Of a stretch of DNA of 64,000 bases, positions 2,616 to 25,283 are shown piece by piece. The notes under the pieces were generated by a model. The model did not search any database. It was not told where the DNA came from and worked only from the letters and a program-made list of their open reading frames with translations. Each line of letters starts with the position of its first letter. Within the stretch, counting starts at the first letter, position 1. A program made the translations under genes and the position numbers. Location: assembly GCA_035255945.1 (NCBI GenBank), contig DATEZA010000319.1:1606-65605 (forward strand), written 5' to 3'. Source of the DNA: Thermoanaerobaculia bacterium (GTDB taxonomy: Bacteria; Acidobacteriota; Thermoanaerobaculia; Gp7-AA8).

Positions 2616-5366
2616 ATGCCCACTCGCACCATCGCGATCCGCGGCGCACGGACTCACAACCTCAAGAACGTCAACGTCGAGATCCCGCAGCGCCAGCTGA
2701 CGGTCATCACCGGTCCGTCCGGCTCCGGAAAGTCGTCGCTTGCGTTCAACACGCTGTACGCCGAAGGTCAGCGACGCTTCGTCGAATCGATGTCGACGTA
2801 CGTGCGGCAGTTCCTGGAGCGGATCGATCGTCCCGACGTGGACGAGATCGACGGAATCCTGCCGGCGATCGCGATCGAACAGAAGAACTCGGTGAAGAAC
2901 GCGCGCTCCACCGTCGCGACCGCCACCGAGCTCGCCGATCACATCCGTCTCTTCATGACGTATTGCGGCGAGACGTGGTGCGCCGACTGCCAGACGAAAG
3001 TGCGCAAGGAATCGCCGGAGTCGATCACCCGCGAGATTGCATCGACGCTCGCGGACAAGCGCGTCGTCGTGCTCGCGCCCGTCTTCTTCGAAGCGGCGAA
3101 TCGCAGCGAAGTGCTCGTGCAGCTGATCAAAGCGGGCTACTTCCGCGCATGGATCAACGGCGCGGTTGCCGATCTGAAGGAAGTGGAGACCGACGGCTTC
3201 ACGTCGCTCGAGATCGTCATCACGCGGCTGCGCGTCGATGAAGAGAAGCGCTTGCAGATCACCGAAGCGATCGAGCAGGCGTTCGAGATCTCCAAGGGCA
3301 CCGTGAACGTGCTCGAAGAGACCGAGGAAGGCTGGCACTCGCATCGATTCACATCGCGCTTCGCGTGCAACAAGTGCGGGAACGAGTTCATCGAGCCGAC
3401 GCCGCACCTCTTCTCCTTCAACTCGCCCCTCGGCGCGTGCACGGTCTGCCAGGGCTACGGCCGGATCATCGGCATCGACATGGAGAAAGTGATTCCGAAT
3501 CGCGCGCTGCGGCTCGACGAGCAGCCGATCGCGCCGTGGAACTCGGCCGGTTACGAAGACTGCTACGAAGACCTCGAGAAGGCTTCGAAGAAGTACGGCC
3601 TGCGGCTCAATGTACCGATCAATCAGCTCACGCCCGCGGAGTGGGAGCTGCTCTACAACGGCCGCAGCAAGTGGTACGGCATCAAAGGCTTTTTCGACTG
3701 GCTGGAGACGAAGAAGTACAAGATCCACGTCCGCGTGAAGCTGGCGAAGTACCGCAGCTACGAGCCGTGTCCCGACTGCCACGGCTCGCGATTGAAGAGC
3801 GCGGCGAACAACGTGAAGTTCCGCGACCTCTCGATTGCGCAGCTCTTCGCGATGGATGTGAAAACGGCGCGGCGATTCTGGGAGTACCTCCCGCTCGACC
3901 GCCACGAGGAAGCGATCGCCGGACATCTCCGCCGCGAGATCGTCAACAGGTTGACCTATCTCGACGAAGTCGGATTGTCGTACCTCACGCTCGATCGCCA
4001 GACGCGCACGCTGTCCGGCGGCGAGGCGCAGCGCATCAACCTCGCGGCGGCACTCGGATCGTCGCTGACCGAGACGATGTACGTGATCGACGAGCCGACG
4101 GTCGGCCTGCACGCGCGCGACAGCGAACGGCTGCTCGCGGTGCTCAAGCGCCTGCGCAATGCGGGGAACACGGTGATCGTGGTGGAGCACGATCCAACGA
4201 TCATCGCCGGCGCGGATCACAACATTGAGATCGGGCCGGGGGCGGGGGAGTACGGCGGAGAGATTCAATATGTGGGGAAGCCGCGCGCTGTGGACAACGG
4301 GTCCTTCGCCGTCGTTGCGGCTCAGGATGACACCTCGTCGGGACACATCAAGATCCGTAACGCGCGCGAGCACAACCTCAAAGGCGTCGACGTCACGATC
4401 CCTCTCGGCAAACTCGTCGCGCTCACCGGCGTCTCGGGCTCGGGTAAATCGACACTCATCCGCAACTGCCTGTTCAATCGCTACCAGCGCGACGTCCGGG
4501 GCACGAACGGTCTCGATGTCGGTAAGAGCGAGCTCGAAGGGACGGAGCTGATCTACGACATGGAGTTCGTCGATCAGTCGCCGATCGGCCGCTCCTCGCG
4601 CTCCAATCCCGCGACCTACATCAAGGTCTGGGACGACGTCCGCAAACTCATGTCCGAGACCACCGGCGCGAAGCTCAACGGCGTCACCGCCGGCATGTTC
4701 TCGTTCAACACGGAAGGCGGACGCTGCGAAACGTGCGAAGGCGCCGGCACGGTGAAGATCGACATGCAGTTCCTCGCAGACGTCGAAGTGATCTGCGAGA
4801 AGTGCAACGGCCGCCGCTTCGGCGAGCAGGTGATGAAGGTCCGGTACAAAGGTAAAGATGTTGACCAGATCCTGAATCTCACCGTCGACGAAGCGACGAA
4901 GTTCTTCATCGACAAGCGCGGTGTCCTCAAGAAGCTCGCCTCGCTCCGCTCCGTCGGCCTCGGTTACCTCCGCCTCGGACAATCAACCGACTCGCTCTCC
5001 GGCGGCGAAGCGCAGCGGCTCAAGCTCGCGTCGTTCCTCGCGGAATCCGCAGCGAAAGCGAACGAGAACGGCGGACGCCTTTTCCTCTTCGACGAACCGA
5101 CGACCGGCCTCGCGGCAACCGATGTCGCGCAGCTCATCACCACCTTCCGCGATCTCCTCGACCGCGGCAACTCCGTGCTGGTGATCGAGCACAACCTGCA
5201 GCTGATCGAAGCCGCGGATTACGTGATCGATCTCGGTCCGGAGGGAGGCGACGGAGGCGGCGAGGTGGTCGCAGTCGGGACGCCGGAGGAGATCGCGGCG
5301 AATCCGCGATCGATCACCGGACGGTATCTCGCGGCGTCAGCGACGATTCGCAGCGTGTCATCCTGA
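2616..5366 (+). CDS. uvrA: Excinuclease ABC subunit A (UvrA)
   Basis: The 916-aa product has the N-terminus [33 protein letters not shown]. It carries two ABC ATPase modules (LSGGEAQR twice) and zinc-finger cysteine clusters. Confidence 0.95.
4280..4330 (+). repeat. In-frame copy of one arm of the GTCATCCTGAGC-type inverted-repeat element, inside the uvrA coding sequence
   Basis: About 52 nt (ccgcgcgctgtggacaacgggtccttcgccgtcgttgcggctcaggatgacac) match the right arm of the element at 5395-5452 with only a few mismatches. The segment encodes [11 protein letters not shown] in the UvrA inter-module linker. Confidence 0.6.
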
Positions 5367-17549: not shown

Positions 17550-19481
17550 TCACTTTCTCAAGACGTCAATTCGCCAGCTGAATTGGTCGACGAGCTTTTC
17601 CGTCCACCCTTCTTTTTTGAAGGCGATGCGTCCTTGCGGATCGAGGAACCAGGTGGTCGGGTATGCGAGCACGCCCGATCGATGCGCCCAGCCATCGTCG
17701 AGAAGGACCGTGAAATCGTAGTGATTGTCTGTCATCCATTGACGCACGATGGACGGATCGCCGTCCGTGTCGACGGTCACAATCCGCACCCGATCGTCGT
17801 CCGCATAGCGCTTCGCAAGCTTCACGATGTCGGGCATTTCCTTCACGCACCAGCCGCACCAGACGCCCCAGAAATTCACAACCGCGACCTTGCCCTTCAA
17901 ATCGGCAAGCGAGAGCGTGCGGCCGTCGAGTGTCTTCAGACGGAACTCGGGAGCACGCACCGGTTTCGCGATGCGCGACTCGAGCACGCGCTGCTTGCTC
18001 GCCGCCGTTCCGTTCGAATCGACACGCACGAGATACGCATCGAAGCCGGCGAGCGTCTTGTGCTTGCGTCGATAGAGCGCTTCGAGCGCGGCGCGATTCG
18101 GATTCACGCCGTTCGTCTGCAGAGCTAATCCCTCGCGGTAGAGCTGCTCCGCCTCGGTGATCTGCTTCTCTGCTTCATACGTCCGCGCGAGGTGGTAGAC
18201 GATCGCCGCGCTCTCCGGATAGAGCTCGCGCGCGGCGAGGATCTCCTTCTGCGCCGCGCTCGTGTTGCCGCGCGCGAGCCAGACCCAGCCGAGCGTGTCG
18301 TGCACCATGCCGCGAAGGTACCGCTCCATACGCTCGCGGGACTCCGGCGGGTCGTTCTGAAATCCGAGCAGATAGCGCTCGTTGAGATCGATCAACCTGC
18401 GCGCGACACGATCGGCGTAAACGAGGTCGAGCTTGCGGTCGGTGAGCTTCTGCACGGCGGAAGAAAGCTGCGGCACGTAGTTGACCGTCAGCGGAATGTT
18501 GTGCACCAGCGCGACGAGCCGCGCATCGTCCTTTTCATCGCGCAACAGCACCGAGCTGGCGGTGGCGATGGCATCCGGATCGCGGCGGTACGGGTAATCG
18601 AGCACGTCGCGCCACGTCGCGTTCGACTTCGCGCGCGACATCAGCACGGTCAACGCCTGCGCGCTCGCCGGCGCTTCGCGCAGGATGCGGTCCTGCACCT
18701 CGCACATACGATCGTTCATCTTCAGCTGCTGATAGCCGCGCGCGGCGAGCGACAACACGTACGGATCGCCATCCGAATCGCGAATCCATGCTTCCAGCTC
18801 GGCGGCATTCGGGAGTTGCAGCGCCATGACATAACGCGACAGCTTCGCGGCGCTCTCGAGCAACGGCTTCGCTTCATCGCGACGCCGAATCTGTTTCAGC
18901 ATCGAGCCGAGACGGTTAAGCGCGGCGATGTTCGACGGATCGATTTTCAGCGCTTCGCGATACGCCGCGATGGCCGGCTCGTCCTGCAGCATCTCGCCCT
19001 TCGCCACCCACACCCGCGCGCTCGGCGGAACCGCGTCGAGCAGGCGCATGGCGGCGTCGTGCTCGGCGATGCTGTTCAGCGCAACCGCGCGCGCGATGAC
19101 CAGCGCTTCATCCGTTTCGGATGCGAGCTTCTCCGCGGCGAGCTTGTTGTCGTCGAAGTGATCGAGATCCTCCCGATACTCATGAGCGATGGCGAACCAG
19201 GTCCATGCGCTCTCCGGATGCGTCGCGCGCATCTCCTCCGCGAGGCGCGTGGCTTCGAGGTCATCGATGTGCTGCAGATTCCGGATGAACCAGGCGTGCT
19301 GTTCGTCGGACGCCCCATCGGCGGCGGCGGAAAAATCAAACCTCTCGTATGCCTGCTGCTGCAAGGTAGTGGTCGTGGTGGTGTAGGGCAAGCTCTCAGC
19401 TTGCCCCTGTGACAAGCTGAGAGACGATGACAAGCTGAGAGCTTGTCCTACACTGGCGGCTAGGAAGAAAAGCGCAAGCAT
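17550..19481 (-). CDS. Exported TPR-repeat protein fused to a C-terminal TlpA/ResA-like thioredoxin domain (WCGWC active site)
   Basis: The start was chosen at MLALFFLAASVGQA (a signal peptide). A central helical TPR region is followed by a C-terminal VAVVNFWGVWCGWCVKEMP thiol-disulfide oxidoreductase motif. Confidence 0.65.
   Translation of the reverse strand: MLALFFLAASVGQALSLSSSLSLSQGQAESLPYTTTTTTLQQQAYERFDFSAAADGASDEQHAWFIRNLQHIDDLEATRLAEEMRATHPESAWTWFAIAHEYREDLDHFDDNKLAAEKLASETDEALVIARAVALNSIAEHDAAMRLLDAVPPSARVWVAKGEMLQDEPAIAAYREALKIDPSNIAALNRLGSMLKQIRRRDEAKPLLESAAKLSRYVMALQLPNAAELEAWIRDSDGDPYVLSLAARGYQQLKMNDRMCEVQDRILREAPASAQALTVLMSRAKSNATWRDVLDYPYRRDPDAIATASSVLLRDEKDDARLVALVHNIPLTVNYVPQLSSAVQKLTDRKLDLVYADRVARRLIDLNERYLLGFQNDPPESRERMERYLRGMVHDTLGWVWLARGNTSAAQKEILAARELYPESAAIVYHLARTYEAEKQITEAEQLYREGLALQTNGVNPNRAALEALYRRKHKTLAGFDAYLVRVDSNGTAASKQRVLESRIAKPVRAPEFRLKTLDGRTLSLADLKGKVAVVNFWGVWCGWCVKEMPDIVKLAKRYADDDRVRIVTVDTDGDPSIVRQWMTDNHYDFTVLLDDGWAHRSGVLAYPTTWFLDPQGRIAFKKEGWTEKLVDQFSWRIDVLRK
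19381..19452. repeat. Nested palindromic cluster inside the 5' coding region of the TPR-TlpA gene
   Basis: gggcaagctctcagcttgccc and gacaagctgagagcttgtc are perfect hairpins (8-9 bp stems), flanked by gtgtagggcaagct / agcttgtcctacac. They encode the low-complexity peptide GQALSLSSSLSLSQGQAESLP. Confidence 0.7.
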
Positions 19482-19495
19482 GGCTTCGCAGACGT

Positions 19496-20467
19496 GTGGA
19501 CGTGTCGCATTATTACCTGCCTGTGCCCGTAGGACTGGACCCCCAGCTCGAAGCGCTCGTCGCCGCACGCAACGAGTCGCAGCGCGCAATCGCGATCGAG
19601 CAATTGCTCACGGAAGTCGCCGATCCGGTGATTCGCAGGAGTTTGTTCCATCGCCTCGGCACGCGCGAGCCGGAGCTCGATGACATCCGCGGCGGCGTGA
19701 TGCTGCGACTGGTCCGCAAGCTCGATGAGCTGCAGCGCGGCGCGAGCGAGCCGATCGGCAGCTTCGCCGATTACGTCGCGATCGTGACATTCCACGCTGC
19801 GGACGACTTTCTCCGCCGCAAGCAGCCGCAGCGGGCTCTGCTGTCGAATCGCATTCGCTATGTGCTCACGCACGATGCACGCTTCGCGCTCTGGCAGATC
19901 GAGCGCGAGCTGGTGTGCGGCCTGGCGAAGTGGCGCGATCGTCCGGCGCGCCCGCGCCCGCTCGATCCGGCGGATGTCGAGGAGCGTCAGCTCGCCGACT
20001 CGCTCGACCGCATCTTCAAACGCAGCGGCGGACCGTTGCCGTTTCAGGAAGTCGTCGTGCTCTTCGCATCGGCATCGGCCTCGGAGATCAATCTGTCGAT
20101 CGAGGACGTCGATCTGCACGAGCTCGCGCCGTCCGCATTCGAGCAGCTCGCGTCGAAGCAGACCGCGGAGCACCTGTGGCGCGAGATCGAGCAGCTCCCG
20201 CCCCGGCAACGCGCCGCGCTGCTGCTCAACCTGCGCGAAGTAGGGGGCGGCAGCGCGATTCCGTTGGTGACGGTGACGGGACTGGCAACTTCGGATCGGA
20301 TCGCGGAGCTGGTCGGCATTCCGGCCGGGGAGTTGGCCTCAATCTGGAACCAGCTGCCCCTCGACGACAACACCATCGCCTCGCGCCTCGGCGCGACGCG
20401 GCAGCAAGTCATCAATCTCCGGAAGTGCGCCCGGGAGCGGCTGGCCAGGCGCCTTTCGAAACGGTAA
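19496..20467 (+). CDS. ECF-like sigma-70 family sigma factor with an extended inter-domain linker
   Basis: The 323-aa product has a region-2-like segment (DIRGGVMLRLVRKLDEL...FADYVAIVTFHAADDFLRRK) and a region-4 HTH (RQRAALLLNLRE...TIASRLGATRQQVINLRKCARERL). The start is uncertain because it lies only 14 nt from the divergent gene. Confidence 0.55.
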   Translation: MDVSHYYLPVPVGLDPQLEALVAARNESQRAIAIEQLLTEVADPVIRRSLFHRLGTREPELDDIRGGVMLRLVRKLDELQRGASEPIGSFADYVAIVTFHAADDFLRRKQPQRALLSNRIRYVLTHDARFALWQIERELVCGLAKWRDRPARPRPLDPADVEERQLADSLDRIFKRSGGPLPFQEVVVLFASASASEINLSIEDVDLHELAPSAFEQLASKQTAEHLWREIEQLPPRQRAALLLNLREVGGGSAIPLVTVTGLATSDRIAELVGIPAGELASIWNQLPLDDNTIASRLGATRQQVINLRKCARERLARRLSKR

Positions 20468-20502
20468 TCAAAGCCGGGCGCACGCGTCTTTGTGAGGTGA
20501 CC

Positions 20503-21480
20503 ATGAACACGGACGAGAAGGAACGGCAGGCGCTGGTACAGGCGCTGGTCGCGGAGCTTTCGGCCGCCGAGCCGCTCCATCTCGACTACGAGCTGATCGA
20601 GGCGTACGTCGACGGGCGCTGCGACCTGATCGATCAGGAGATCGTCTCCTCGCATGCCGCGATGTGCCCGATGTGCGGCCGGGAAGTGCGGGATCTGCAG
20701 ACATTTGCGGCCCAGCACCGGCGTCCGCGCCGGAACTGGCTGCCGCTCGCCGCGGCGGCGATCGCCGCCTGCCTCATTCTCGCCATTCTTCCGCTGCTCC
20801 GTCCTTCCGCAACGGTGCTTTCGCTCCACGACGGCAATCGGGAAGTGCGGCTCACGAAAGACGGGCAGCTCTCCGGCATCAGCGGTCTGACCATCGACGA
20901 CGAGCGGCGGATCGCGAACGCCTTGCGCAGCGGCATGGTCGGGATCCCGCCGAACGCCGCGCAGCTCGCAAAAACGGGCGAGGCGCTGCGCTCGACATTC
21001 CCCGCCACGCCATCAGCGTTCGAGCCGCTGGCCCCGATCGGATGCATCATCGTCAGCGACAGGCCGACCTTCGAATGGACCGCCGTTCCCGGAGCTCTCT
21101 ATCGCGTGGAAGTTTTCTCCGACCACTTCCGTCCGGTCGCGGACAGCGGTCCGATCGACGAAACGCGGTGGACCACGCCGCAGCCACTCGCGCGCGGCAC
21201 GACGTACGTCTGGCAAGTGACGGCGCTGCTCGACACAGTCGAAACGACGTCACCGGCGCCGCCGGCCCCCGAGGCTCGGTTCGCGGTGTTGGACGCGGCG
21301 AACGCGCAGGAGATCGCGCGACTCGAGCTGGTGCAGCCGCGTTCGCATCTCGCGCTGGGCGTGGCGTACGCCTCAGCGGGTGTGACGGCGGAAGCGGAGC
21401 GCGAGCTGCAGGAGCTGGCGAACGAAAATCGCGGCTCGGCCGATGCGCAGCGCTTGTTGCAATCGTTGCGCTCGCACTGA
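20503..21480 (+). CDS. Zinc-binding (ZAS-type HxxxCxxC) transmembrane anti-sigma factor with a periplasmic C-terminal domain
   Basis: The start MNTDEKERQ is preceded by GAGG. The product has the HAAMCPMC motif, a single TM helix (WLPLAAAAIAACLILAILPLL) and a C-terminal domain of about 230 aa. Confidence 0.7.
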   Translation: MNTDEKERQALVQALVAELSAAEPLHLDYELIEAYVDGRCDLIDQEIVSSHAAMCPMCGREVRDLQTFAAQHRRPRRNWLPLAAAAIAACLILAILPLLRPSATVLSLHDGNREVRLTKDGQLSGISGLTIDDERRIANALRSGMVGIPPNAAQLAKTGEALRSTFPATPSAFEPLAPIGCIIVSDRPTFEWTAVPGALYRVEVFSDHFRPVADSGPIDETRWTTPQPLARGTTYVWQVTALLDTVETTSPAPPAPEARFAVLDAANAQEIARLELVQPRSHLALGVAYASAGVTAEAERELQELANENRGSADAQRLLQSLRSH

Positions 21481-21482
21481 GC

Positions 21483-21540
21483 GGCCCTCATCCGGCCTTC
21501 GGCCACCTTCTCCCCGCTGCGCGGGGCGAAGGCCAGGGGC
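21483..21540. repeat. Family-B hairpin element, truncated copy
   Basis: ggccctcatccggccttcggccaccttctccccgctgcgcggggcgaagg lies immediately after the anti-sigma stop codon. Confidence 0.7.
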
Positions 21541-21692
21541 GAGCGCTCGCTGCACACGCCATCGACCTCACAAACCAAAATCGCATCGATGAAGCTGCAT
21601 CCGTCGCATTCGACGCGCGCGTTGCCGCTCTCGCATGCAATGACCTGATCGGCGTTGCGCGTGCGGCGGACGCGCAGGGCGTCGTCGCGCGC

Positions 21693-23660
21693 ATGCGCAA
21701 CGATGCTGATGCCGCGCTCGACTACACGAGCGAAGCGCTCGCACTCGGCGAGTTCGCGCACGACACCTTCACGATCGCGCGCGCATGGAGCGATCTCGGC
21801 CGCATCTACTTCGATCTGCTCGAAGACTACGACGCAGCGCTCGCCGCGTATCAGCGCAGTCTCGCGATCAATCCCTCCGATTCGCGCGTGCTGAACAACC
21901 TCGGCAACCTCGCGCGCGCCGAGGGCGACTTCCGCAATGCGATCGCGTACTACAAGCGGAGCGGTGCGGCGGCGAAGAAGGCGAAGGATCGGTATGGCGA
22001 GATCAGCGCGGAGCACAACATCGGACTGGTGTACACGCAGCAGAACGATCCAGCCGCGGCGCTCTTGCATCTGCGACGCGCTCTCGCGATGGATCGCTCG
22101 GCGCGCACGCTGCTGTCGATCTCGGAGGCGGAGCGCGCACTCGGCAACGACGCCGCGGCGTTGCGCGATCTGCGCCGCGCGCGTGCTGCGTCGAAAGATG
22201 ATCTGACGCTTGCGACGATCCTGTTGCGCGAAGGCGATCTGCGGCTCGACCGGCACGATCTCGCCGGCGCAGCGCGCGCGTTCGATCAGAGCATTCGCCT
22301 CGCGCCGACGCCGGCCGCGCTGACGTATCGCGCGCGGTTGCGCCTCGCGCAGAAGCGATACGCGGATGCAGCGTCAATCGCGATCGATGCGGCGAATCGC
22401 GCGAACGATCCCGACACGATCGCGCACGCGCAGTCGATCGCGGGGCAGGCGTATCGCGCGTTGCACAATCGCGACGCGGCGAAACGCGCGTTCAGCGCGG
22501 CGATCGATGCGATCGAGCGCGAACGGCGGCAGGTCGCGGGCGGCGCGGAGTCGCGCGAGCGTTCGTTCGAAGCGAAGGTCTATCCGTATCTCGCGATGGT
22601 CGATCTGCTCGCAGAATCGAACGACGCGCGAGGCGCGCTCGAATACGCGGAGCGCGCGAAGGGACGCGTGCTCGTCGACGTGCTGCAGGGTCGCATCAGC
22701 GTGCCGGCGTTTCGTCTGCAACTGCCCGAGGAAGGCGACGCGATTCTCGAATACGCGGTGAGCGATTCCGCGCTGTACGCGTTCGTCGTCACGCGCGAGG
22801 GCGTGCGCGAGTTCACCACTGTGATTCCGCGCGCGGAGCTCGCCGCGGTCTGCAATCGTTTCGCGAGCGAGCTCGCCAGCCGCAATCTCGCGTTCCGCCG
22901 CACCGCGCGGCATCTGTGGGATCTGCTGCTGGAGCCGGAAGCGCCGCTGCTGCGCGGGAAGAAACGGATTTGCATCGTGCCGGATTCGGAGCTCTGGCGC
23001 GTGCCGTTCCAGGCGCTGATCGATCCGAGCGATCGCTACGTCGCCGACGATGCGGCGATTTTTTATGCGCCGTCGATCGCGGCAATAAGGCCCGGTGTAC
23101 GACAAGCTCTCAGCTTGTCGCCTCTCATCGTCGCCATGCCCGAAGCGCGCAGCGAAGCCGAACAGATCGCCGCGATCTATGCGCCTCGCGCGCATGTCGA
23201 GATCGATGCACGCGAGCAGCTCGTCAAAGACGCCGCGCCGCGTTACGACATCCTCCACTTCGCAACGCACGGCGTGTTCGACGACGACGCGCCGCTCTCC
23301 TCGTACCTCGTGTTCGGACGCGGACGGCTCGAGGCGCGCGAGATGATGTCGATGCACCTCAACGCGCAGCTCGTCGTGCTCTCCGCGTGTCAGACGGCGA
23401 TGGGACGACCCGCGCCGGGCGAAGGGATCATCGGCATGTCGTGGGCGCTGTTCGTCGCCGGCTGTCCGACGATGGTCGCGAGCGAATGGAAAGTCGAGGC
23501 GACGAGCACGTCGGCGATGATGGTCGCGTTCCATCGCAATGTCGCGCAACGCGGGATGTCACCGGCGGAAGCGCTGCGCGCGGCGCAACTCGATGTGCGC
23601 AGGCATTACGAGCATCCGTTTTACTGGGCGTCGTTCGTCGTGTTGGGGCGGGGGTGGTGA
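21693..23660 (+). CDS. TPR-CHAT protein (paralogue of 182-2587); the N-terminus is possibly truncated or uses a non-canonical start
   Basis: The first ATG lies after the family-B element. The open frame continues upstream with protein-like sequence but no ATG/GTG/TTG. The C-terminus has HFATHG, LSACQTA and HPFYWASFVVLGRG CHAT motifs. Confidence 0.6.
   Translation: MRNDADAALDYTSEALALGEFAHDTFTIARAWSDLGRIYFDLLEDYDAALAAYQRSLAINPSDSRVLNNLGNLARAEGDFRNAIAYYKRSGAAAKKAKDRYGEISAEHNIGLVYTQQNDPAAALLHLRRALAMDRSARTLLSISEAERALGNDAAALRDLRRARAASKDDLTLATILLREGDLRLDRHDLAGAARAFDQSIRLAPTPAALTYRARLRLAQKRYADAASIAIDAANRANDPDTIAHAQSIAGQAYRALHNRDAAKRAFSAAIDAIERERRQVAGGAESRERSFEAKVYPYLAMVDLLAESNDARGALEYAERAKGRVLVDVLQGRISVPAFRLQLPEEGDAILEYAVSDSALYAFVVTREGVREFTTVIPRAELAAVCNRFASELASRNLAFRRTARHLWDLLLEPEAPLLRGKKRICIVPDSELWRVPFQALIDPSDRYVADDAAIFYAPSIAAIRPGVRQALSLSPLIVAMPEARSEAEQIAAIYAPRAHVEIDAREQLVKDAAPRYDILHFATHGVFDDDAPLSSYLVFGRGRLEAREMMSMHLNAQLVVLSACQTAMGRPAPGEGIIGMSWALFVAGCPTMVASEWKVEATSTSAMMVAFHRNVAQRGMSPAEALRAAQLDVRRHYEHPFYWASFVVLGRGW
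23094..23121. repeat. Second copy of the palindromic caagctctcagcttg element, in-frame inside the TPR-CHAT coding sequence
   Basis: ggtgtacgacaagctctcagcttgtcgcc parallels ggtgtagggcaagctctcagcttgcccc at 19380. It encodes RQALSLS. Confidence 0.65.
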
Positions 23661-23714: not shown

Positions 23715-24341
23715 CTATTTCCGGATCGGTTCCAGCTCGTTCGGGGCGAGCGGCTGGCCGAGGGTGGACTTCATCGCGCCGGAGATCGAGGCGAACGGCG
23801 AGGTTGCCGGACCGGTCCCGCCGCGCTGCGCTTCGAACTTGTTCGCCAGCTGGAACGATGCGACGAAGCGCTTGAAGTCGTCCATCGCATTGCGCGACTC
23901 CGACGCGTACTGAATCGTGTAGATGCGATTCAGCGCCGCGAGGTAGCCCTCGACGTACATGACCTTCCCGTTCTTGTCGATGCGGGTGTACGAGTAGGTG
24001 TACGACGGAAAGATCGGCGACGTGGTGCGCATCGTGTGGAACTCGCCGATGTGAAAGCCCGCCGCCTCGGCATCGAAGCGCAGCGTCGTCTGCACCGCGT
24101 ACAGCAGATGCTCGTCGACCTTGAAGTTGCCGGTCGGCGTCACGGTGATCGAAAAACGCTCGCCGTGCGGATCGCTCACGTACAGGACGCCGTCGTACTC
24201 GCCGAGCTCCTTGTGAGCGACGGTGCTCCACTTCCAGTCGGACGCCGGCGTCGCGATCGAAAAATTCAGATCGCGATCGGTGAAGCGGTCCTGCGCGGTC
24301 AGCGATGTGGCGAAGAGGAGCAGCGCAATCAGGTTTCGCAT
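23715..24341 (-). CDS. Hypothetical secreted protein
   Basis: The 208-aa product begins with a signal peptide (MRNLIALLLFATSLTAQD). It has no recognisable domain. Confidence 0.45.
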   Translation of the reverse strand: MRNLIALLLFATSLTAQDRFTDRDLNFSIATPASDWKWSTVAHKELGEYDGVLYVSDPHGERFSITVTPTGNFKVDEHLLYAVQTTLRFDAEAAGFHIGEFHTMRTTSPIFPSYTYSYTRIDKNGKVMYVEGYLAALNRIYTIQYASESRNAMDDFKRFVASFQLANKFEAQRGGTGPATSPFASISGAMKSTLGQPLAPNELEPIRK

Positions 24342-24344
24342 GAT

Positions 24345-25283
24345 TCAGATGCCGGTCGGAATCTCTTCTTCGGGACGTTCGTCCTGCACGAGTTTGTCCA
24401 GGATGATCGCCTGATGCTTCGCGGTCACGACTTTTTCGTCGACCGTCTCGACACGCTCGAGCGCAGCAGTCAGCTCGAGCGAGCTCCGTTCCACCGCTTC
24501 CATGAACGTCGGCTCGGAGCGCGGCAGCACGATCGGCAGCTCCGCCTGTTCCGCCGGCGCGCGGCGCCACCAGCGCTCTTCCGATTCGCGGAAGTCCTTG
24601 TTGAACATCAGCAGCGTCGGGACGATCTTCTCGTACAGCTGCGCGGTCGCGCGTACGTCTTCGAGGCAGTAGTCGGCGATCTCGCGATGCCGTCCCATGC
24701 GGTACCACATCTCGACCGAGCGGCCGTCGATGCCTTCGCTCTTCGACGTCTCGACGCCGAACGTCTTGCACGCGAGATCGAGGTTGAATTTGAACTGGCG
24801 GCTGTTCGTCGTGCCGAAGAAATTGAGCGCCTCGCGCAGATCGCAGTTCGGGTGATAGCCGTAGCGATAGCCGACGAGATCGCGCTTCGGCACGACGCCG
24901 TGAATCGCGGAACGGATCATCAGGAACGGGCCGTCGAACTGCCGTCCGTTGAAGCTGATGAAGCGCGAGTCGTCATCGAAGAACTGCCAGAACTTTTCGA
25001 GGATCTGCTTCTCGCTGCCGGAGATGTAGGTGCGCGTGTTGACGCGCTCGACGCGCAGCTCGGTCTGGCCCGGCACTTCATACAACACGCACGAGCGGCC
25101 GTCTTCGATGTTGATCACGCCGATCGCGACGATGCGGCCGCGAAATGGTGAGAGTCCGCCGGCCCGCCGCGCCTCCTCGGCATCACCGTCCGACAATCCC
25201 TTGATCAGATACTCGCGAACGTACGGGTCGAGCTCTTCCCACGGAATGCCGACGGTCTCGATGTCGATGACGAGTTTTTTCAT
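24345..25283 (-). CDS. Predicted 3'-5' exonuclease related to the PolB exonuclease domain (RNase H-like fold)
   Basis: The 312-aa product begins MKKLVIDIETVGIP, an Exo I-type acidic motif. Its overall pattern resembles COG3298-type proteins. Confidence 0.5.
   Translation of the reverse strand: MKKLVIDIETVGIPWEELDPYVREYLIKGLSDGDAEEARRAGGLSPFRGRIVAIGVINIEDGRSCVLYEVPGQTELRVERVNTRTYISGSEKQILEKFWQFFDDDSRFISFNGRQFDGPFLMIRSAIHGVVPKRDLVGYRYGYHPNCDLREALNFFGTTNSRQFKFNLDLACKTFGVETSKSEGIDGRSVEMWYRMGRHREIADYCLEDVRATAQLYEKIVPTLLMFNKDFRESEERWWRRAPAEQAELPIVLPRSEPTFMEAVERSSLELTAALERVETVDEKVVTAKHQAIILDKLVQDERPEEEIPTGI

What the first reader, a model, noticed from the sequence alone, without database searches (positions are those of the whole stretch)
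19381..23660. ECF sigma factor / zinc anti-sigma factor / TPR-CHAT caspase-like protein module with a divergent TPR-thioredoxin gene
Three genes lie in a row on the plus strand. The first encodes an extended ECF-like sigma factor. The second encodes a membrane anti-sigma factor carrying the redox-sensitive HxxxCxxC zinc motif and a periplasmic domain of about 230 aa. The third encodes a TPR-CHAT protein. CHAT domains are caspase-fold proteases. Regulated proteolysis of an anti-sigma factor is the canonical way ECF sigma factors are released. A TPR-CHAT protease that acts on a partner which then modulates an RpoE-type sigma factor is already known from type III-E CRISPR Craspase systems. The arrangement here suggests a stand-alone protease-gated sigma/anti-sigma switch that does not depend on CRISPR. 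The divergent neighbour is an exported TPR-TlpA thiol-disulfide oxidoreductase, which fits a thiol/redox envelope-stress regulon. I cannot tell from sequence whether the CHAT protein cleaves the anti-sigma factor or a target of the regulon.
Basis: partly seen in the sequence, partly recalled or inferred. Interest (0 to 1): 0.8.

Follow-up and report, generated by a model that had tools for sequence, protein, structure and literature searches.

The report
Split sigma/anti-sigma/caspase-like protease signalling module
A soil Acidobacteria genome carries a conserved three-gene set (an unusual sigma factor, its membrane anti-sigma factor and a caspase-like TPR-CHAT protein) that looks like a split version of the recently described Myxococcus DdvS/DdvA switch, so the idea that a caspase-like protease releases a sigma factor could be tested with protease and substrate as separate proteins.

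Summary
Three co-directional genes encode:
- a divergent 323-aa ECF-type sigma factor;
- a single-pass zinc (HHCC) anti-sigma factor with a 225-aa outer domain;
- a TPR-CHAT protein with an intact His/Cys dyad.

The trio is not a chance adjacency. Of 60 informative related loci across Acidobacteriota, 46-47 have a CHAT gene directly beside the sigma/anti-sigma pair.

The closest known system is Myxococcus DdvS/DdvA, not Craspase. DdvA is the best solved-structure match of the anti-sigma zinc domain. It is also the best-superposing match of the TPR-CHAT model. In DdvA the two parts are fused; here they are separate genes. Outside the window's own clade, 96 of 107 CHAT partners have a signal-peptide-like N-terminus, which suggests export.

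A bipartite ECF-type motif, GGTAAT-N16-CGTC, lies at the sigma/anti-sigma junction and just upstream of the divergent TlpA-like gene. This predicts that both are sigma-dependent. The TlpA gene is, however, a variable neighbour.

Cleavage of the anti-sigma factor by CHAT is inferred, not shown.

One anomaly remains. In this clade the CHAT reading frame has no canonical start codon for its conserved N-terminus.

Verdict: a new split variant of a known kind, of moderate to high interest.

The parts
19496..20467 (+). Divergent, extended ECF-type sigma factor (323 aa; alternative starts are GTG 19502 or GTG 19523). It has a long sigma2-sigma4 linker and an insertion of about 40 aa inside region 4.
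   Evidence: TIGR02937 E=1.4e-7 over profile positions 5-165. All 24 family members hit TIGR02937. Sigma70_r2 is hit by 9 of 24 members and region-4 models by 4 of 24. Alignment A1 shows the insertions. The family comprises 1505 50%-identity clusters at E<=1e-30.
20463..20488 (+). ECF-type promoter-like motif GGTAAT-N16-CGTC. It overlaps the sigma stop codon and ends 14 nt before the anti-sigma ATG.
   Evidence: Exact motif found at this position. The window has 3 matches against 0.13 expected, and 0 of 100 shuffles reach 3. The same position is occupied in L081, L083, L085, L086, L087, L001 and L003. Allowing up to 1 mismatch, 16 of the 80 loci carry the motif at the sigma stop. The spacing peaks sharply at N16.
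20503..21480 (+). Single-pass zinc-binding (ZAS, HHCC) anti-sigma factor. The cytoplasmic domain is residues 1-72. The zinc ligands are H26, H51, C55 and C58, at nt 20578, 20653, 20665 and 20674. The transmembrane helix is residues 80-99 (nt 20740-20799). The outer domain is residues 100-325: a small alpha/beta part, an FN3/Ig-like sandwich and four TPR-like helices.
21483..21538 (+). Hairpin-forming (REP-like) sequence. It accounts for a 36-nt in-frame insertion at the anti-sigma/CHAT junction, relative to L081 and L083.
   Evidence: DNA alignment A2 shows gaps of 12 and 24 nt in the relatives. Inverted repeat at 21494-21504 / 21524-21534. Other hairpin-like insertions occupy the same junction in L086 and L087.
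21477..23660 (+). TPR-CHAT (caspase-fold) protein. Conserved coding sequence begins at or before about 21540. The annotated start, ATG 21693, gives 655 aa. The CHAT domain spans about 22896-23648. The catalytic His579 is at 23268 and Cys619 at 23388 (numbering from 21534).
   Evidence: Pfam CHAT E=1.8e-60 plus TPR models. The dyad is invariant in A4. The AF2 model has pLDDT 89. Foldseek top hits are Csx29, DdvA and separase. dN/dS is 0.15-0.27 for the 47 codons from 21558, almost all of them upstream of ATG 21693. The only start-like codon near the junction is CTG 21477, which overlaps the TGA stop.
19491..19517 (-). Second promoter-like motif, GGTAAT-N17-CGTC, on the minus strand. It ends 9 nt before the ATG of the TlpA-like gene.
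   Evidence: Equivalent minus-strand motifs, followed by GGAGG and an ATG, lie upstream of the divergent TonB-dependent-receptor gene in L083 and L085. In L083 this gene is followed by the TlpA-like gene.
17550..19481 (-). Exported TPR plus TlpA/ResA-like thiol-disulfide oxidoreductase (WCGWC at nt 17847-17861). It is a probable but variable regulon member.
   Evidence: AhpC-TSA E=1.8e-20, Redoxin E=3.2e-17, ResA NF002854 E=2.3e-21. CxxC coordinates. The gene is present in L003, L083 and L084. It is absent from L081, L082, L086, L087 and the P0253 locus.

Best explanation
This is a three-component trans-envelope signalling module, and a split form of the Myxococcus DdvS/DdvA system.

Proposed mechanism:
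1. The ECF-type sigma factor is held at the inner membrane by the cytoplasmic zinc (HHCC) domain of the anti-sigma factor.
2. The FN3-plus-TPR-like outer domain of the anti-sigma factor pairs with a separately encoded TPR-CHAT protein, which is exported in most family members.
3. On an unknown envelope signal, the CHAT His/Cys protease cuts the outer domain of the anti-sigma factor (a site-1 cut).
4. This exposes the remainder to intramembrane (RseP-type) and cytoplasmic proteolysis, and the sigma factor is freed.
5. The free sigma factor transcribes from GGTAAT-N16-CGTC promoters. In this window these drive the anti-sigma-CHAT operon (negative feedback) and the divergent TlpA-like oxidoreductase gene.

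Shown here: the domain identities, the conserved linkage, the similarity to DdvA, signal peptides in most partners, and the promoter-like motif with its positions.

Inferred: physical pairing, cleavage of the anti-sigma factor, use of a site-2 protease, and recognition of the motif by this sigma factor.
For: Linkage:
- A CHAT gene lies directly next to the sigma/anti-sigma pair in 46-47 of 60 informative loci. These span Thermoanaerobaculia, Blastocatellia/Pyrinomonadaceae, Vicinamibacteria and others.
- The CHAT gene is co-directional in 16 loci, convergent in 25 and directly upstream of sigma in 5. The association therefore survives rearrangement.

Similarity to DdvA:
- The anti-sigma family profile finds DdvA as its best PDB match, over the ZAS domain and transmembrane region.
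- Among the top Foldseek hits of the CHAT model, DdvA has the highest TM-score (0.54) and identity (18%).
- PMC11506125 shows that removing the TPR-CHAT domain of DdvA makes it an RseP substrate, and proposes CHAT as the site-1 protease.

Location and catalytic competence:
- 96 of 107 called CHAT homologues outside the window clade have a signal-peptide-like N-terminus. That places them on the same side of the membrane as the 225-aa outer domain of the anti-sigma factor.
- The catalytic dyad is invariant.

Promoter motif:
- The spacing peaks at N16 (24 of 55 exact hits).
- The motif is enriched more than 100-fold at the sigma stop and is also found upstream of sigma.
- The window has 3 matches against 0.13 expected.
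Against: - No cleavage, binding or transcription data exist. Even for DdvA, CHAT activity has not been demonstrated.
- Seven informative loci, mostly Bryobacteraceae/Solibacteraceae, have the sigma/anti-sigma pair but no CHAT gene within 10 kb. CHAT is therefore not always adjacent.
- The AF2 model of the anti-sigma factor shows no long flexible juxtamembrane linker of the kind proposed as the cut site in DdvA. The only candidate is the Pro-rich stretch at about residues 164-174.
- In the window's own clade the CHAT gene has no canonical start and no called signal peptide (0 of 11). Its export here is uncertain.
- Convergent CHAT genes lack the motif (2 of 30). CHAT is therefore not uniformly co-regulated.
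Confidence: 0.45

Rival explanations
1. The TPR-CHAT protein is an output of the sigma factor, not its regulator. In this reading it is an exported effector protease acting on other envelope or foreign proteins. It sits next to the pair only because it is co-transcribed or co-inherited.
For: - In the window clade and other Thermoanaerobaculia, the CHAT gene lies downstream of the anti-sigma gene, behind the sigma-type promoter-like motif.
- Other genes behind such motifs are variable exported proteins: a TlpA-like protein, a TonB-dependent receptor, and unknown exported proteins in L040.
- CHAT domains serve as effectors in other conflict systems. This last point rests on general knowledge only.
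Against: - Outputs vary from locus to locus, whereas CHAT is the one constant neighbour across classes and orientations.
- Convergent CHAT genes lack the motif (2 of 30).
- The only characterised relative, DdvA, has the TPR-CHAT as part of the anti-sigma factor itself.
Confidence: 0.2
2. The TPR-CHAT protein is a non-proteolytic co-sensor or scaffold. Its TPR array binds a periplasmic ligand and the outer domain of the anti-sigma factor. The anti-sigma factor is then inactivated by another protease or by a conformational change. Any CHAT activity is directed at other substrates, or at itself.
For: - DdvA catalytic-dyad mutants behave like wild type in the resting state, and its dyad is misaligned.
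- TPR and FN3 domains are generic protein-binding modules.
Against: His579 and Cys619 are invariant in all 40 aligned homologues. This argues that catalysis is under selection.
Confidence: 0.2
3. The switch is a cytoplasmic thiol/redox sensor of the RsrA/ChrR type. Oxidation of the zinc site releases the sigma factor, and the TlpA-like oxidoreductase is the response. CHAT plays no part in signalling.
For: - A complete HHCC ligand set with ChrR-like H-25-H spacing.
- ChrR is the second-best PDB match.
- The TlpA-like gene lies behind the promoter-like motif.
Against: - The large conserved outer domain and the conserved CHAT partner would be left unexplained.
- The TlpA-like gene is missing from most syntenic relatives.
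- Many ZAS proteins are not redox-sensitive (established knowledge).
Confidence: 0.1
4. In this particular genome and its near relatives the module is degenerating. The CHAT gene has lost its start codon and signal peptide, so it is either poorly translated or made as a cytoplasmic, non-functional remnant.
For: - No ATG, GTG or TTG occurs in frame between the anti-sigma gene and ATG 21693.
- Gene callers give 0 of 11 clade members a hydrophobic N-terminus.
- Hairpin elements have inserted at the junction.
Against: - The reading frame of about 2.1 kb is intact in six genomes that are 63-100% identical.
- Four indels at the junction all keep the frame.
- dN/dS is 0.15-0.27 upstream of the annotated ATG.
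- The catalytic dyad is kept.
Confidence: 0.1

Closest known systems
DdvS/DdvA of Myxococcus xanthus: an ECF sigma factor with a transmembrane ZAS anti-sigma factor that carries a periplasmic TPR-CHAT domain (PMC11506125; PDB 8ROT, 8RW5, 8RLZ)
   Same: - An ECF-type sigma factor is paired with a single-pass zinc anti-sigma factor.
- A TPR-CHAT unit with a conserved His/Cys dyad is present.
- DdvA is the best PDB match of the anti-sigma profile.
- DdvA is the best-superposing top match of the CHAT model.
- The proposed logic is the same: CHAT acts as site-1 protease ahead of RseP.
   Different: - Here the anti-sigma factor and the TPR-CHAT are two separate genes.
- The anti-sigma factor has its own FN3-plus-TPR-like outer domain, where DdvA has a flexible linker and scaffold.
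- The sigma factor is 323 aa, with a long linker and a region-4 insertion.
- The phylum is Acidobacteriota. DdvA-like fusions were reported only in Myxococcota and one Comamonas.
- No CBASS or CRISPR genes lie nearby.
- Whether this CHAT domain lacks the three-helix motif that is missing in DdvA was not determined.
Type III-E Craspase: Cas7-11 with Csx29 TPR-CHAT, Csx30 and a CASP-sigma/RpoE (PMC10028731)
   Same: - The TPR-CHAT fold. Csx29 is the top Foldseek hit by E-value and a weak NCBIfam hit (NF041237, E=1.2e-4).
- A protease is genetically linked to an ECF-type sigma factor.
   Different: - Craspase is cytoplasmic and RNA-guided. It cleaves Csx30, not a membrane ZAS anti-sigma factor.
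- No cas genes are present here.
- Sequence identity to Csx29 is only 12-13%.
Canonical regulated intramembrane proteolysis of anti-sigma factors (RseA/DegS/RseP, RsiW/PrsW/RasP, RsiV)
   Same: A single-pass anti-sigma factor with an outer domain that is presumed to block site-2 cleavage until a site-1 cut is made.
   Different: The candidate site-1 protease would be a caspase-fold cysteine protease with a TPR sensor array, encoded in the same module. In the canonical systems it is a serine or metalloprotease, or signal peptidase.
ECF54 (Actinobacteria), whose conserved gene context includes proteins with carboxypeptidase, subtilase and CHAT domains (PMC8999054, citing Huang 2015 and Casas-Pastor 2021)
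   Same: A CHAT-domain gene has been noted in the conserved neighbourhood of an ECF group, and control by proteolysis has been proposed.
   Different: ECF54 has no anti-sigma factor and belongs to a different phylum. The family here always has a ZAS anti-sigma factor, and its sigma factor has a different architecture. The relationship of this sigma factor to ECF54 was not tested.
ChrR/RsrA/RslA-type ZAS anti-sigma factors
   Same: The H-x3-C-x2-C motif plus an upstream His ligand. ChrR and RslA are among the PDB hits of the profile.
   Different: This protein is membrane-anchored and has a large FN3/TPR outer domain, with no cupin domain. Redox sensitivity is unknown.

Membership tests
ECF (group 4) sigma-70 family | Sigma region 2 and region 4 domains | tested here: met
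   TIGR02937 aligns residues 36-320 to profile positions 5-165 at E=1.4e-7, below the curated cut-off. All 24 family members hit it, best E=5e-12. Sigma70_r2 is hit by 9 of 24 members, and Sigma70_r4 or r4_2 by 4 of 24. The window protein on its own fails the Pfam thresholds.
ECF (group 4) sigma-70 family | Minimal two-domain architecture of about 170-220 aa with a short linker | tested here: not met
   The protein is 323 aa. It has a conserved segment of about 100 aa between regions 2 and 4, and an insertion of about 40 aa inside region 4 (alignment A1). Neither the single sequence nor the family profile finds any solved sigma factor.
ECF (group 4) sigma-70 family | Cognate anti-sigma factor encoded next to it, and an ECF-type bipartite promoter at its own locus | tested here: met
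   An anti-sigma homologue lies immediately downstream in 75 of 80 loci. The GGTAAT-N16-CGTC motif is found upstream of sigma or at the sigma/anti-sigma junction. Recognition of the motif by this sigma factor is inferred.
ZAS (zf-HC2) anti-sigma factors | H-x3-C-x2-C motif plus a fourth upstream ligand | tested here: met
   H26, H51, C55 and C58 are each conserved in at least 90% of 51 homologues. PF13490 is hit by 40 of 51 homologues. The window protein is sub-threshold (E=0.002).
ZAS (zf-HC2) anti-sigma factors | Binds and inhibits its sigma factor; binds zinc | not testable with these tools
   No multimer prediction or experiment was available.
CHAT / caspase-fold (clan CD) peptidases | CHAT domain with the catalytic His-Cys dyad | tested here: met
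   PF12770 E=1.8e-60. H579 (in HFATHG) and C619 (in LSACQT) are invariant in 40 sequences. The fold matches Csx29, DdvA and separase.
CHAT / caspase-fold (clan CD) peptidases | Peptidase activity | not testable with these tools
   Requires biochemistry.
DdvS/DdvA-type TPR-CHAT anti-sigma systems | ZAS domain, transmembrane helix and TPR-CHAT in one polypeptide | tested here: not met
   The genes are separate, with a stop codon at 21478-21480, and the CHAT frame is offset by -1. They are separate ORFs in all related loci inspected.
DdvS/DdvA-type TPR-CHAT anti-sigma systems | Homology of both the ZAS domain and the TPR-CHAT unit to DdvA | tested here: met
   Profile A3 against the PDB gives 8rot_B at E=2.4e-4 and 8rlz_A at E=9e-4 as the best hits. 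Foldseek gives 8rot_A at E=3e-15, TM 0.54, 18% identity. The CHAT sequence alone does not find DdvA with phmmer.
DdvS/DdvA-type TPR-CHAT anti-sigma systems | TPR-CHAT located in the periplasm | tested here: inconclusive
   A signal-peptide-like N-terminus is present in 96 of 107 homologues outside the window clade, but in 0 of 11 as called inside it. A hydrophobic stretch is readable in the -1 frame across the anti-sigma stop, but it has no start codon.
DdvS/DdvA-type TPR-CHAT anti-sigma systems | Controls an adjacent antiviral defence island (CBASS/CRISPR) | tested here: not met
   The neighbours are housekeeping or envelope genes. PADLOC gives no hit for the sigma or anti-sigma factor. The DdvA paper notes that only a subset of DdvA-like pairs lie near defence genes.
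Type III-E Craspase | Association with Cas7-11/gRAMP and a CRISPR array; Csx30 substrate | tested here: not met
   No cas-like genes lie within about 7 kb in the window or in the syntenic loci L081-L087. The match to NF041237 is far below its cut-off (21 against 300 bits).
TlpA/ResA-like thiol-disulfide oxidoreductases (divergent gene) | Thioredoxin fold with a CxxC motif, and export | tested here: met
   AhpC-TSA, Redoxin and ResA hits. The WCGWC motif and a hydrophobic N-terminus, MLALFFLAAS.

The most novel reading that the evidence does not exclude
An exported caspase-fold TPR-CHAT protein may be the dedicated, trans-acting site-1 protease, or an obligate co-receptor, for a whole unclassified family of extended ECF-like sigma factors. 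That family has about 1500-2800 clusters at 50% identity and several paralogues per genome in Acidobacteriota. It would be a natural split counterpart of DdvA, in which protease and substrate are separate proteins.

A rarer sub-case has a probability of about 0.05-0.1. In the window's clade the CHAT protein would be made by non-canonical initiation or recoding from inside the 3' end of the anti-sigma gene, so that synthesis of the two proteins is coupled.
Probability: 0.35. Interest if true: 0.75.

Novelty: new variant of a known kind. Interest (0 to 1): 0.62.

Why it matters
DdvA is so far the only characterised anti-sigma factor with a TPR-CHAT domain. Its proposed self-cleavage could not be demonstrated, because the signal is unknown and protease and substrate are one chain.

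In the family found here the two are separate proteins. Cleavage, binding and specificity could therefore be tested by simple co-expression and by swapping paralogous pairs.

The finding also does three other things:
- It extends the link between caspase-like proteases and sigma factors from Myxococcota to a major soil phylum.
- It defines a sigma family that standard Pfam models mostly miss: only 9 of 24 aligned members hit Sigma70_r2 and 4 of 24 a region-4 model.
- It supplies a candidate promoter motif for mapping the family's regulons.

Tried and rejected
- **Sigma factor against the PDB.** Neither the single sequence nor the profile gave a hit. The sigma assignment therefore rests on TIGR02937, Pfam hits in relatives and the promoter motif.
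- **CHAT sequence against the PDB.** The full protein found only TPR proteins. The CHAT domain alone gave only weak Csx29 hits (E about 0.3). DdvA appeared only by fold comparison.
- **PADLOC.** No defence-system assignment for the sigma or anti-sigma factor. A defence-island reading is rejected for this locus.
- **Sigma-type motif upstream of convergent CHAT genes.** Found in only 2 of 30.
- **Exported proteins behind a third motif in L040.** They have no Pfam hits and no relatives in the other loci. I rejected them as a fourth conserved module component.
- **Canonical or near-cognate start, or an X_XXY_YYZ slippery site, for the signal-peptide-like stretch in the CHAT frame.** By inspection, none is conserved in the six clade members. 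An out-of-frame ATG at 21443 is present in only 4 of the 6.
- **Casas-Pastor 2021.** The main text does not mention CHAT, and no supplementary files were held.
- **A simple REP family search in the window** with the hairpin core gave only the local copy.

Full report
**What is there**

Between 19.4 and 23.7 kb the plus strand carries three consecutive reading frames, and the minus strand carries a divergent gene. NCBI records for identical proteins assign the source to a Thermoanaerobaculia (Acidobacteriota) metagenome-assembled genome.

Gene 1 (19496-20467, 323 aa) has no Pfam hit at E<=0.01. It aligns end to end with TIGR02937 sigma70-ECF at E=1.4e-7. That is 31 bits, below the 42.9-bit cut-off. 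An alignment of 24 relatives shows the following:
- a region-2-like block;
- a conserved extra segment of about 100 aa;
- a region 4 split by an insertion of about 40 aa that itself looks like a helix-turn-helix.

All 24 members hit TIGR02937, with a best E of 5e-12. Nine hit Sigma70_r2 and four hit a region-4 model. No solved sigma factor is found by sequence or by profile. The protein is therefore a divergent, extended ECF-type sigma factor, not a textbook one.

A full-library profile search finds only 2768 clusters at 50% identity at E<=1e-3, and 1505 at E<=1e-30. The family is discrete.

Gene 2 (20503-21480, 325 aa) has H26, H51, C55 and C58. Each is conserved in at least 90% of 51 homologues. 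PF13490 zf-HC2 is sub-threshold in the window protein but is hit by 40 of 51 homologues. The AF2 model (pLDDT 92) shows the following:
- a helical N-terminal domain;
- a transmembrane helix at residues 80-99, preceded by RRPRR;
- an outer domain of about 225 aa.

Gene 3 is a TPR-CHAT protein, with PF12770 at E=1.8e-60. His579 and Cys619 are invariant in 40 sequences. The AF2 model (pLDDT 89) has a long TPR superhelix followed by a caspase-like alpha/beta domain.

The divergent gene (17550-19481, minus strand) is an exported TPR plus TlpA/ResA-like oxidoreductase with a WCGWC motif.

**Is the arrangement more than chance?**

A pattern scan of one genome per species found 412 relatives of the sigma factor. 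Eighty loci were kept, and nearly all are Acidobacteriota MAGs. I searched their six-frame ORFs with the window proteins. This found an anti-sigma homologue directly downstream of sigma in 75 of 80 loci.

Sixty loci have an anti-sigma gene and enough flanking sequence to judge. Their CHAT-domain genes are distributed as follows (L033 misses my distance cut-off by 10 nt):

| Position of the CHAT gene | Loci |
|---|---|
| Directly downstream, co-directional | 16 |
| Directly downstream, convergent | 25 |
| Directly upstream of sigma | 5 |
| Elsewhere within 10 kb | 7 (includes L033, which is in fact adjacent) |
| None | 7 (mostly Bryobacteraceae/Solibacteraceae) |

Several genomes hold three or four such modules on different contigs. 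The linkage survives changes of orientation and class-level divergence. The trio is therefore a functional unit.

The TlpA-like gene is not part of that unit. In syntenic relatives of the window the divergent neighbour of sigma is one of two things:
- an amidohydrolase, in L081, L082, L086, L087 and the P0253 locus;
- a TonB-dependent-receptor gene, followed in L083 and L084 by the TlpA-like gene. In L085 the sequence beyond the receptor gene is cut off by the end of the locus.

**Where the proteins sit**

Full-length CHAT partners usually begin with a Sec-type signal peptide. Their start codon overlaps or closely follows the anti-sigma stop. An example is L002, with cTGATG and the N-terminus MRAIALAICTLLAAPFVFAQT. 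Many then have a SnoaL-like domain before the TPRs.

By a simple hydrophobicity test, 96 of 107 called homologues outside the window clade have such an N-terminus. In the family at large, the protease therefore shares the periplasm with the outer domain of the anti-sigma factor.

**A promoter-like motif**

A search for bipartite words upstream of the sigma genes gave GGTAAT-N-CGTC. Across all loci the exact motif has a sharp spacing optimum at N16: 24 of 55 hits, against 1-5 at every other spacing from 10 to 22.

Allowing one mismatch, the background is 0.043 hits per kb. Against that background:
- 16 loci have the motif within -25 to +50 nt of the sigma stop;
- 9 loci have it within 150 nt upstream of sigma.

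In the window, GGTAATN{15,17}CGTC occurs three times against 0.13 expected, and 0 of 100 shuffles reach three. All three sites lie inside this module:
- 20463-20488 (+). It overlaps the sigma stop codon and ends 14 nt before the anti-sigma ATG. The same site is present in L081, L083, L085, L086 and L087.
- 19491-19517 (-). It ends 9 nt before the TlpA ATG. L083 and L085 have equivalent sites, followed by GGAGG and an ATG, in front of the divergent receptor gene.
- 18593-18618 (+). It lies antisense inside the TlpA gene and is unexplained.

The shape of the motif, with CGTC at -10 and a 16-nt spacer, is that of ECF promoters (established knowledge). That this sigma factor reads it is an inference. 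If it does, then the anti-sigma-CHAT operon and the TlpA-like gene are sigma-dependent here.

Convergent CHAT genes do not carry the motif (2 of 30). Genes behind additional motifs, as in L040, are unrelated exported proteins without family hits. The outputs therefore look variable and envelope-directed.

**Comparison with known systems**

The literature search found Myxococcus DdvS/DdvA (PMC11506125). DdvA is a single-pass ZAS anti-sigma factor whose periplasmic part is a TPR-CHAT domain. Removing that domain makes DdvA an RseP substrate. The authors propose signal-induced CHAT self-cleavage as the site-1 step, but they could not trigger it. They report DdvA-like proteins only in Myxococcota and one Comamonas.

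Two independent comparisons tie the present module to DdvA:
- The anti-sigma family profile finds DdvA as its best solved relative (8rot_B E=2.4e-4, 8rlz_A E=9e-4), ahead of ChrR, RslA and RsiW.
- The Foldseek top hits of the CHAT model are Csx29, DdvA and separase. Among the top matches DdvA has the best TM-score (0.54) and identity (18%, against 12-13% for Csx29).

It is cytoplasmic and Cas7-11-bound, and it cleaves Csx30. No cas genes occur here.

A CHAT gene in the context of an ECF group has also been noted for actinobacterial ECF54, which lacks an anti-sigma factor (PMC8999054). I found no description of a split anti-sigma/TPR-CHAT module.

**Most likely mechanism and its rivals**

The best-supported reading is a split DdvA-type switch. 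The exported TPR-CHAT protein pairs with the anti-sigma outer domain. On a signal it cuts that domain. Intramembrane proteolysis then frees the sigma factor, which transcribes from GGTAAT-N16-CGTC promoters. I rate the three-part functional unit and its kinship with DdvA as very likely (about 0.8). I rate the specific site-1 cleavage step at about 0.45.

The rivals are:
- CHAT as a mere output effector (0.2);
- CHAT as a non-proteolytic co-sensor (0.2);
- a purely cytoplasmic redox ZAS switch (0.1);
- decay of the module in this clade (0.1).

Points against the main model:
- Seven loci lack a nearby CHAT gene.
- The anti-sigma model has no long flexible juxtamembrane linker.
- There are no biochemical data anywhere, DdvA included.

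**An unresolved anomaly in this window**

NCBI calls the CHAT protein from ATG 21693, giving 655 aa (P0241). The 47 codons from 21558, almost all of them upstream of that ATG, are conserved at protein level, with dN/dS of 0.15-0.27 against three relatives. They align with the mature N-terminus of orthologues that carry signal peptides.

In the CHAT frame there is no ATG, GTG or TTG between the anti-sigma gene and 21693. The only start-like codon is CTG 21477, which overlaps the TGA stop.

In all six clade members the frame stays open across the anti-sigma stop. In the -1 frame of the anti-sigma 3' end it reads a signal-peptide-like stretch. Examples are ERKSRLGRCAALVAIVALALS in the window and ...ALVAVVALALSAFAQPDP in L081.

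The six junctions are 15, 15, 18, 27, 49 and 52 codons long. The differences come from independent hairpin-element insertions. All six are in frame and free of stops.

Three readings remain open: non-canonical initiation, recoding, or loss of export. By inspection I saw no conserved slippery heptamer.

**Verdict**

The module is a new split variant of a recently described kind. It is widespread in a major soil phylum, it has a candidate promoter motif, and it offers an experimentally convenient separation of protease and substrate.

Noticed in passing
window 21420-21700; L081 8900-9140; L083 8890-9050; L085 3780-4000; L086 3680-4000; L087 4900-5100: The CHAT reading frame lacks a canonical start for its conserved N-terminus. 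It stays open across the anti-sigma stop and reads a signal-peptide-like stretch in the -1 frame of the anti-sigma 3' end. The only start-like codon is CTG 21477, which overlaps the TGA. The annotated ATG 21693 lies about 50 conserved codons too far downstream (dN/dS 0.15-0.27).
   Followed up: partly
window 21483-21538; L086 about 3740-3860; L087 about 4965-5090: GC-rich hairpin (REP-like) elements have inserted independently at the same anti-sigma/CHAT junction in three relatives. Each insertion is in frame and has no stop codons, so the elements appear to be translated as part of the CHAT N-terminal region.
   Followed up: partly
window 19381-19453: A 73-nt near-perfect palindrome (23-nt arms, 96% complementary, plus an inner 11-nt pair and a 14-nt direct repeat) lies in frame inside the 5' end of the TlpA-like gene. 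It adds about 30 residues (VGQALSLSSSLSLSQGQAESLPYTTTTTT) that are absent from the L083 orthologue.
   Followed up: partly
window 18593-18618 (+): A third exact GGTAAT-N16-CGTC match lies antisense inside the TlpA-like coding region. It could be a chance match or an antisense promoter.
   Followed up: no
window 20200-20400 (sigma residues about 245-290): Region 4 of the sigma factor carries a conserved insertion of about 40 aa (GGGSAIPLVTVTGLATSDRIAELVGIPAGELASIWNQLPLDD). It resembles a second helix-turn-helix. Five relatives hit HTH_Crp_2. A conserved segment of about 100 aa (NRIRYVLTHDARFALW...) also lies between regions 2 and 4. Neither fold was determined.
   Followed up: no
alignment A3 (anti-sigma homologues such as P0148 and P0155, 360-440 aa): Many longer anti-sigma homologues carry two tandem ZAS-like H-x3-C-x2-C motifs. 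ChrR matches the first and DdvA the second. The window protein keeps only the second.
   Followed up: no
L020, L022, L036, L040, L043, L058 and others; P0281, P0310, P0334, P0336: In Blastocatellia/Pyrinomonadaceae the CHAT partners have a SnoaL_3/NTF2-like domain between the signal peptide and the TPRs. This domain type is otherwise known as a C-terminal extension of some ECF sigma factors.
   Followed up: no
L083 2087-6946; L085 1-1830; window 17550-19517: A cassette lies between the amidohydrolase gene and the sigma gene. It consists of a CarboxypepD_reg-Plug TonB-dependent-receptor gene followed by the TlpA-like gene, and it is present, partial or absent among close relatives. When present it sits behind the same promoter-like motif. 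In the window only the TlpA-like gene remains, with the motif 9 nt from its ATG.
   Followed up: partly
window 23715-25283 (-): An exported 208-aa protein with no family hit, and a PolB-like 3'-5' exonuclease (DNA_pol_B_exo2), lie convergent to the CHAT gene. They are syntenic in L002, L003 and L081-L087. This is probably plain synteny rather than part of the module.
   Followed up: partly
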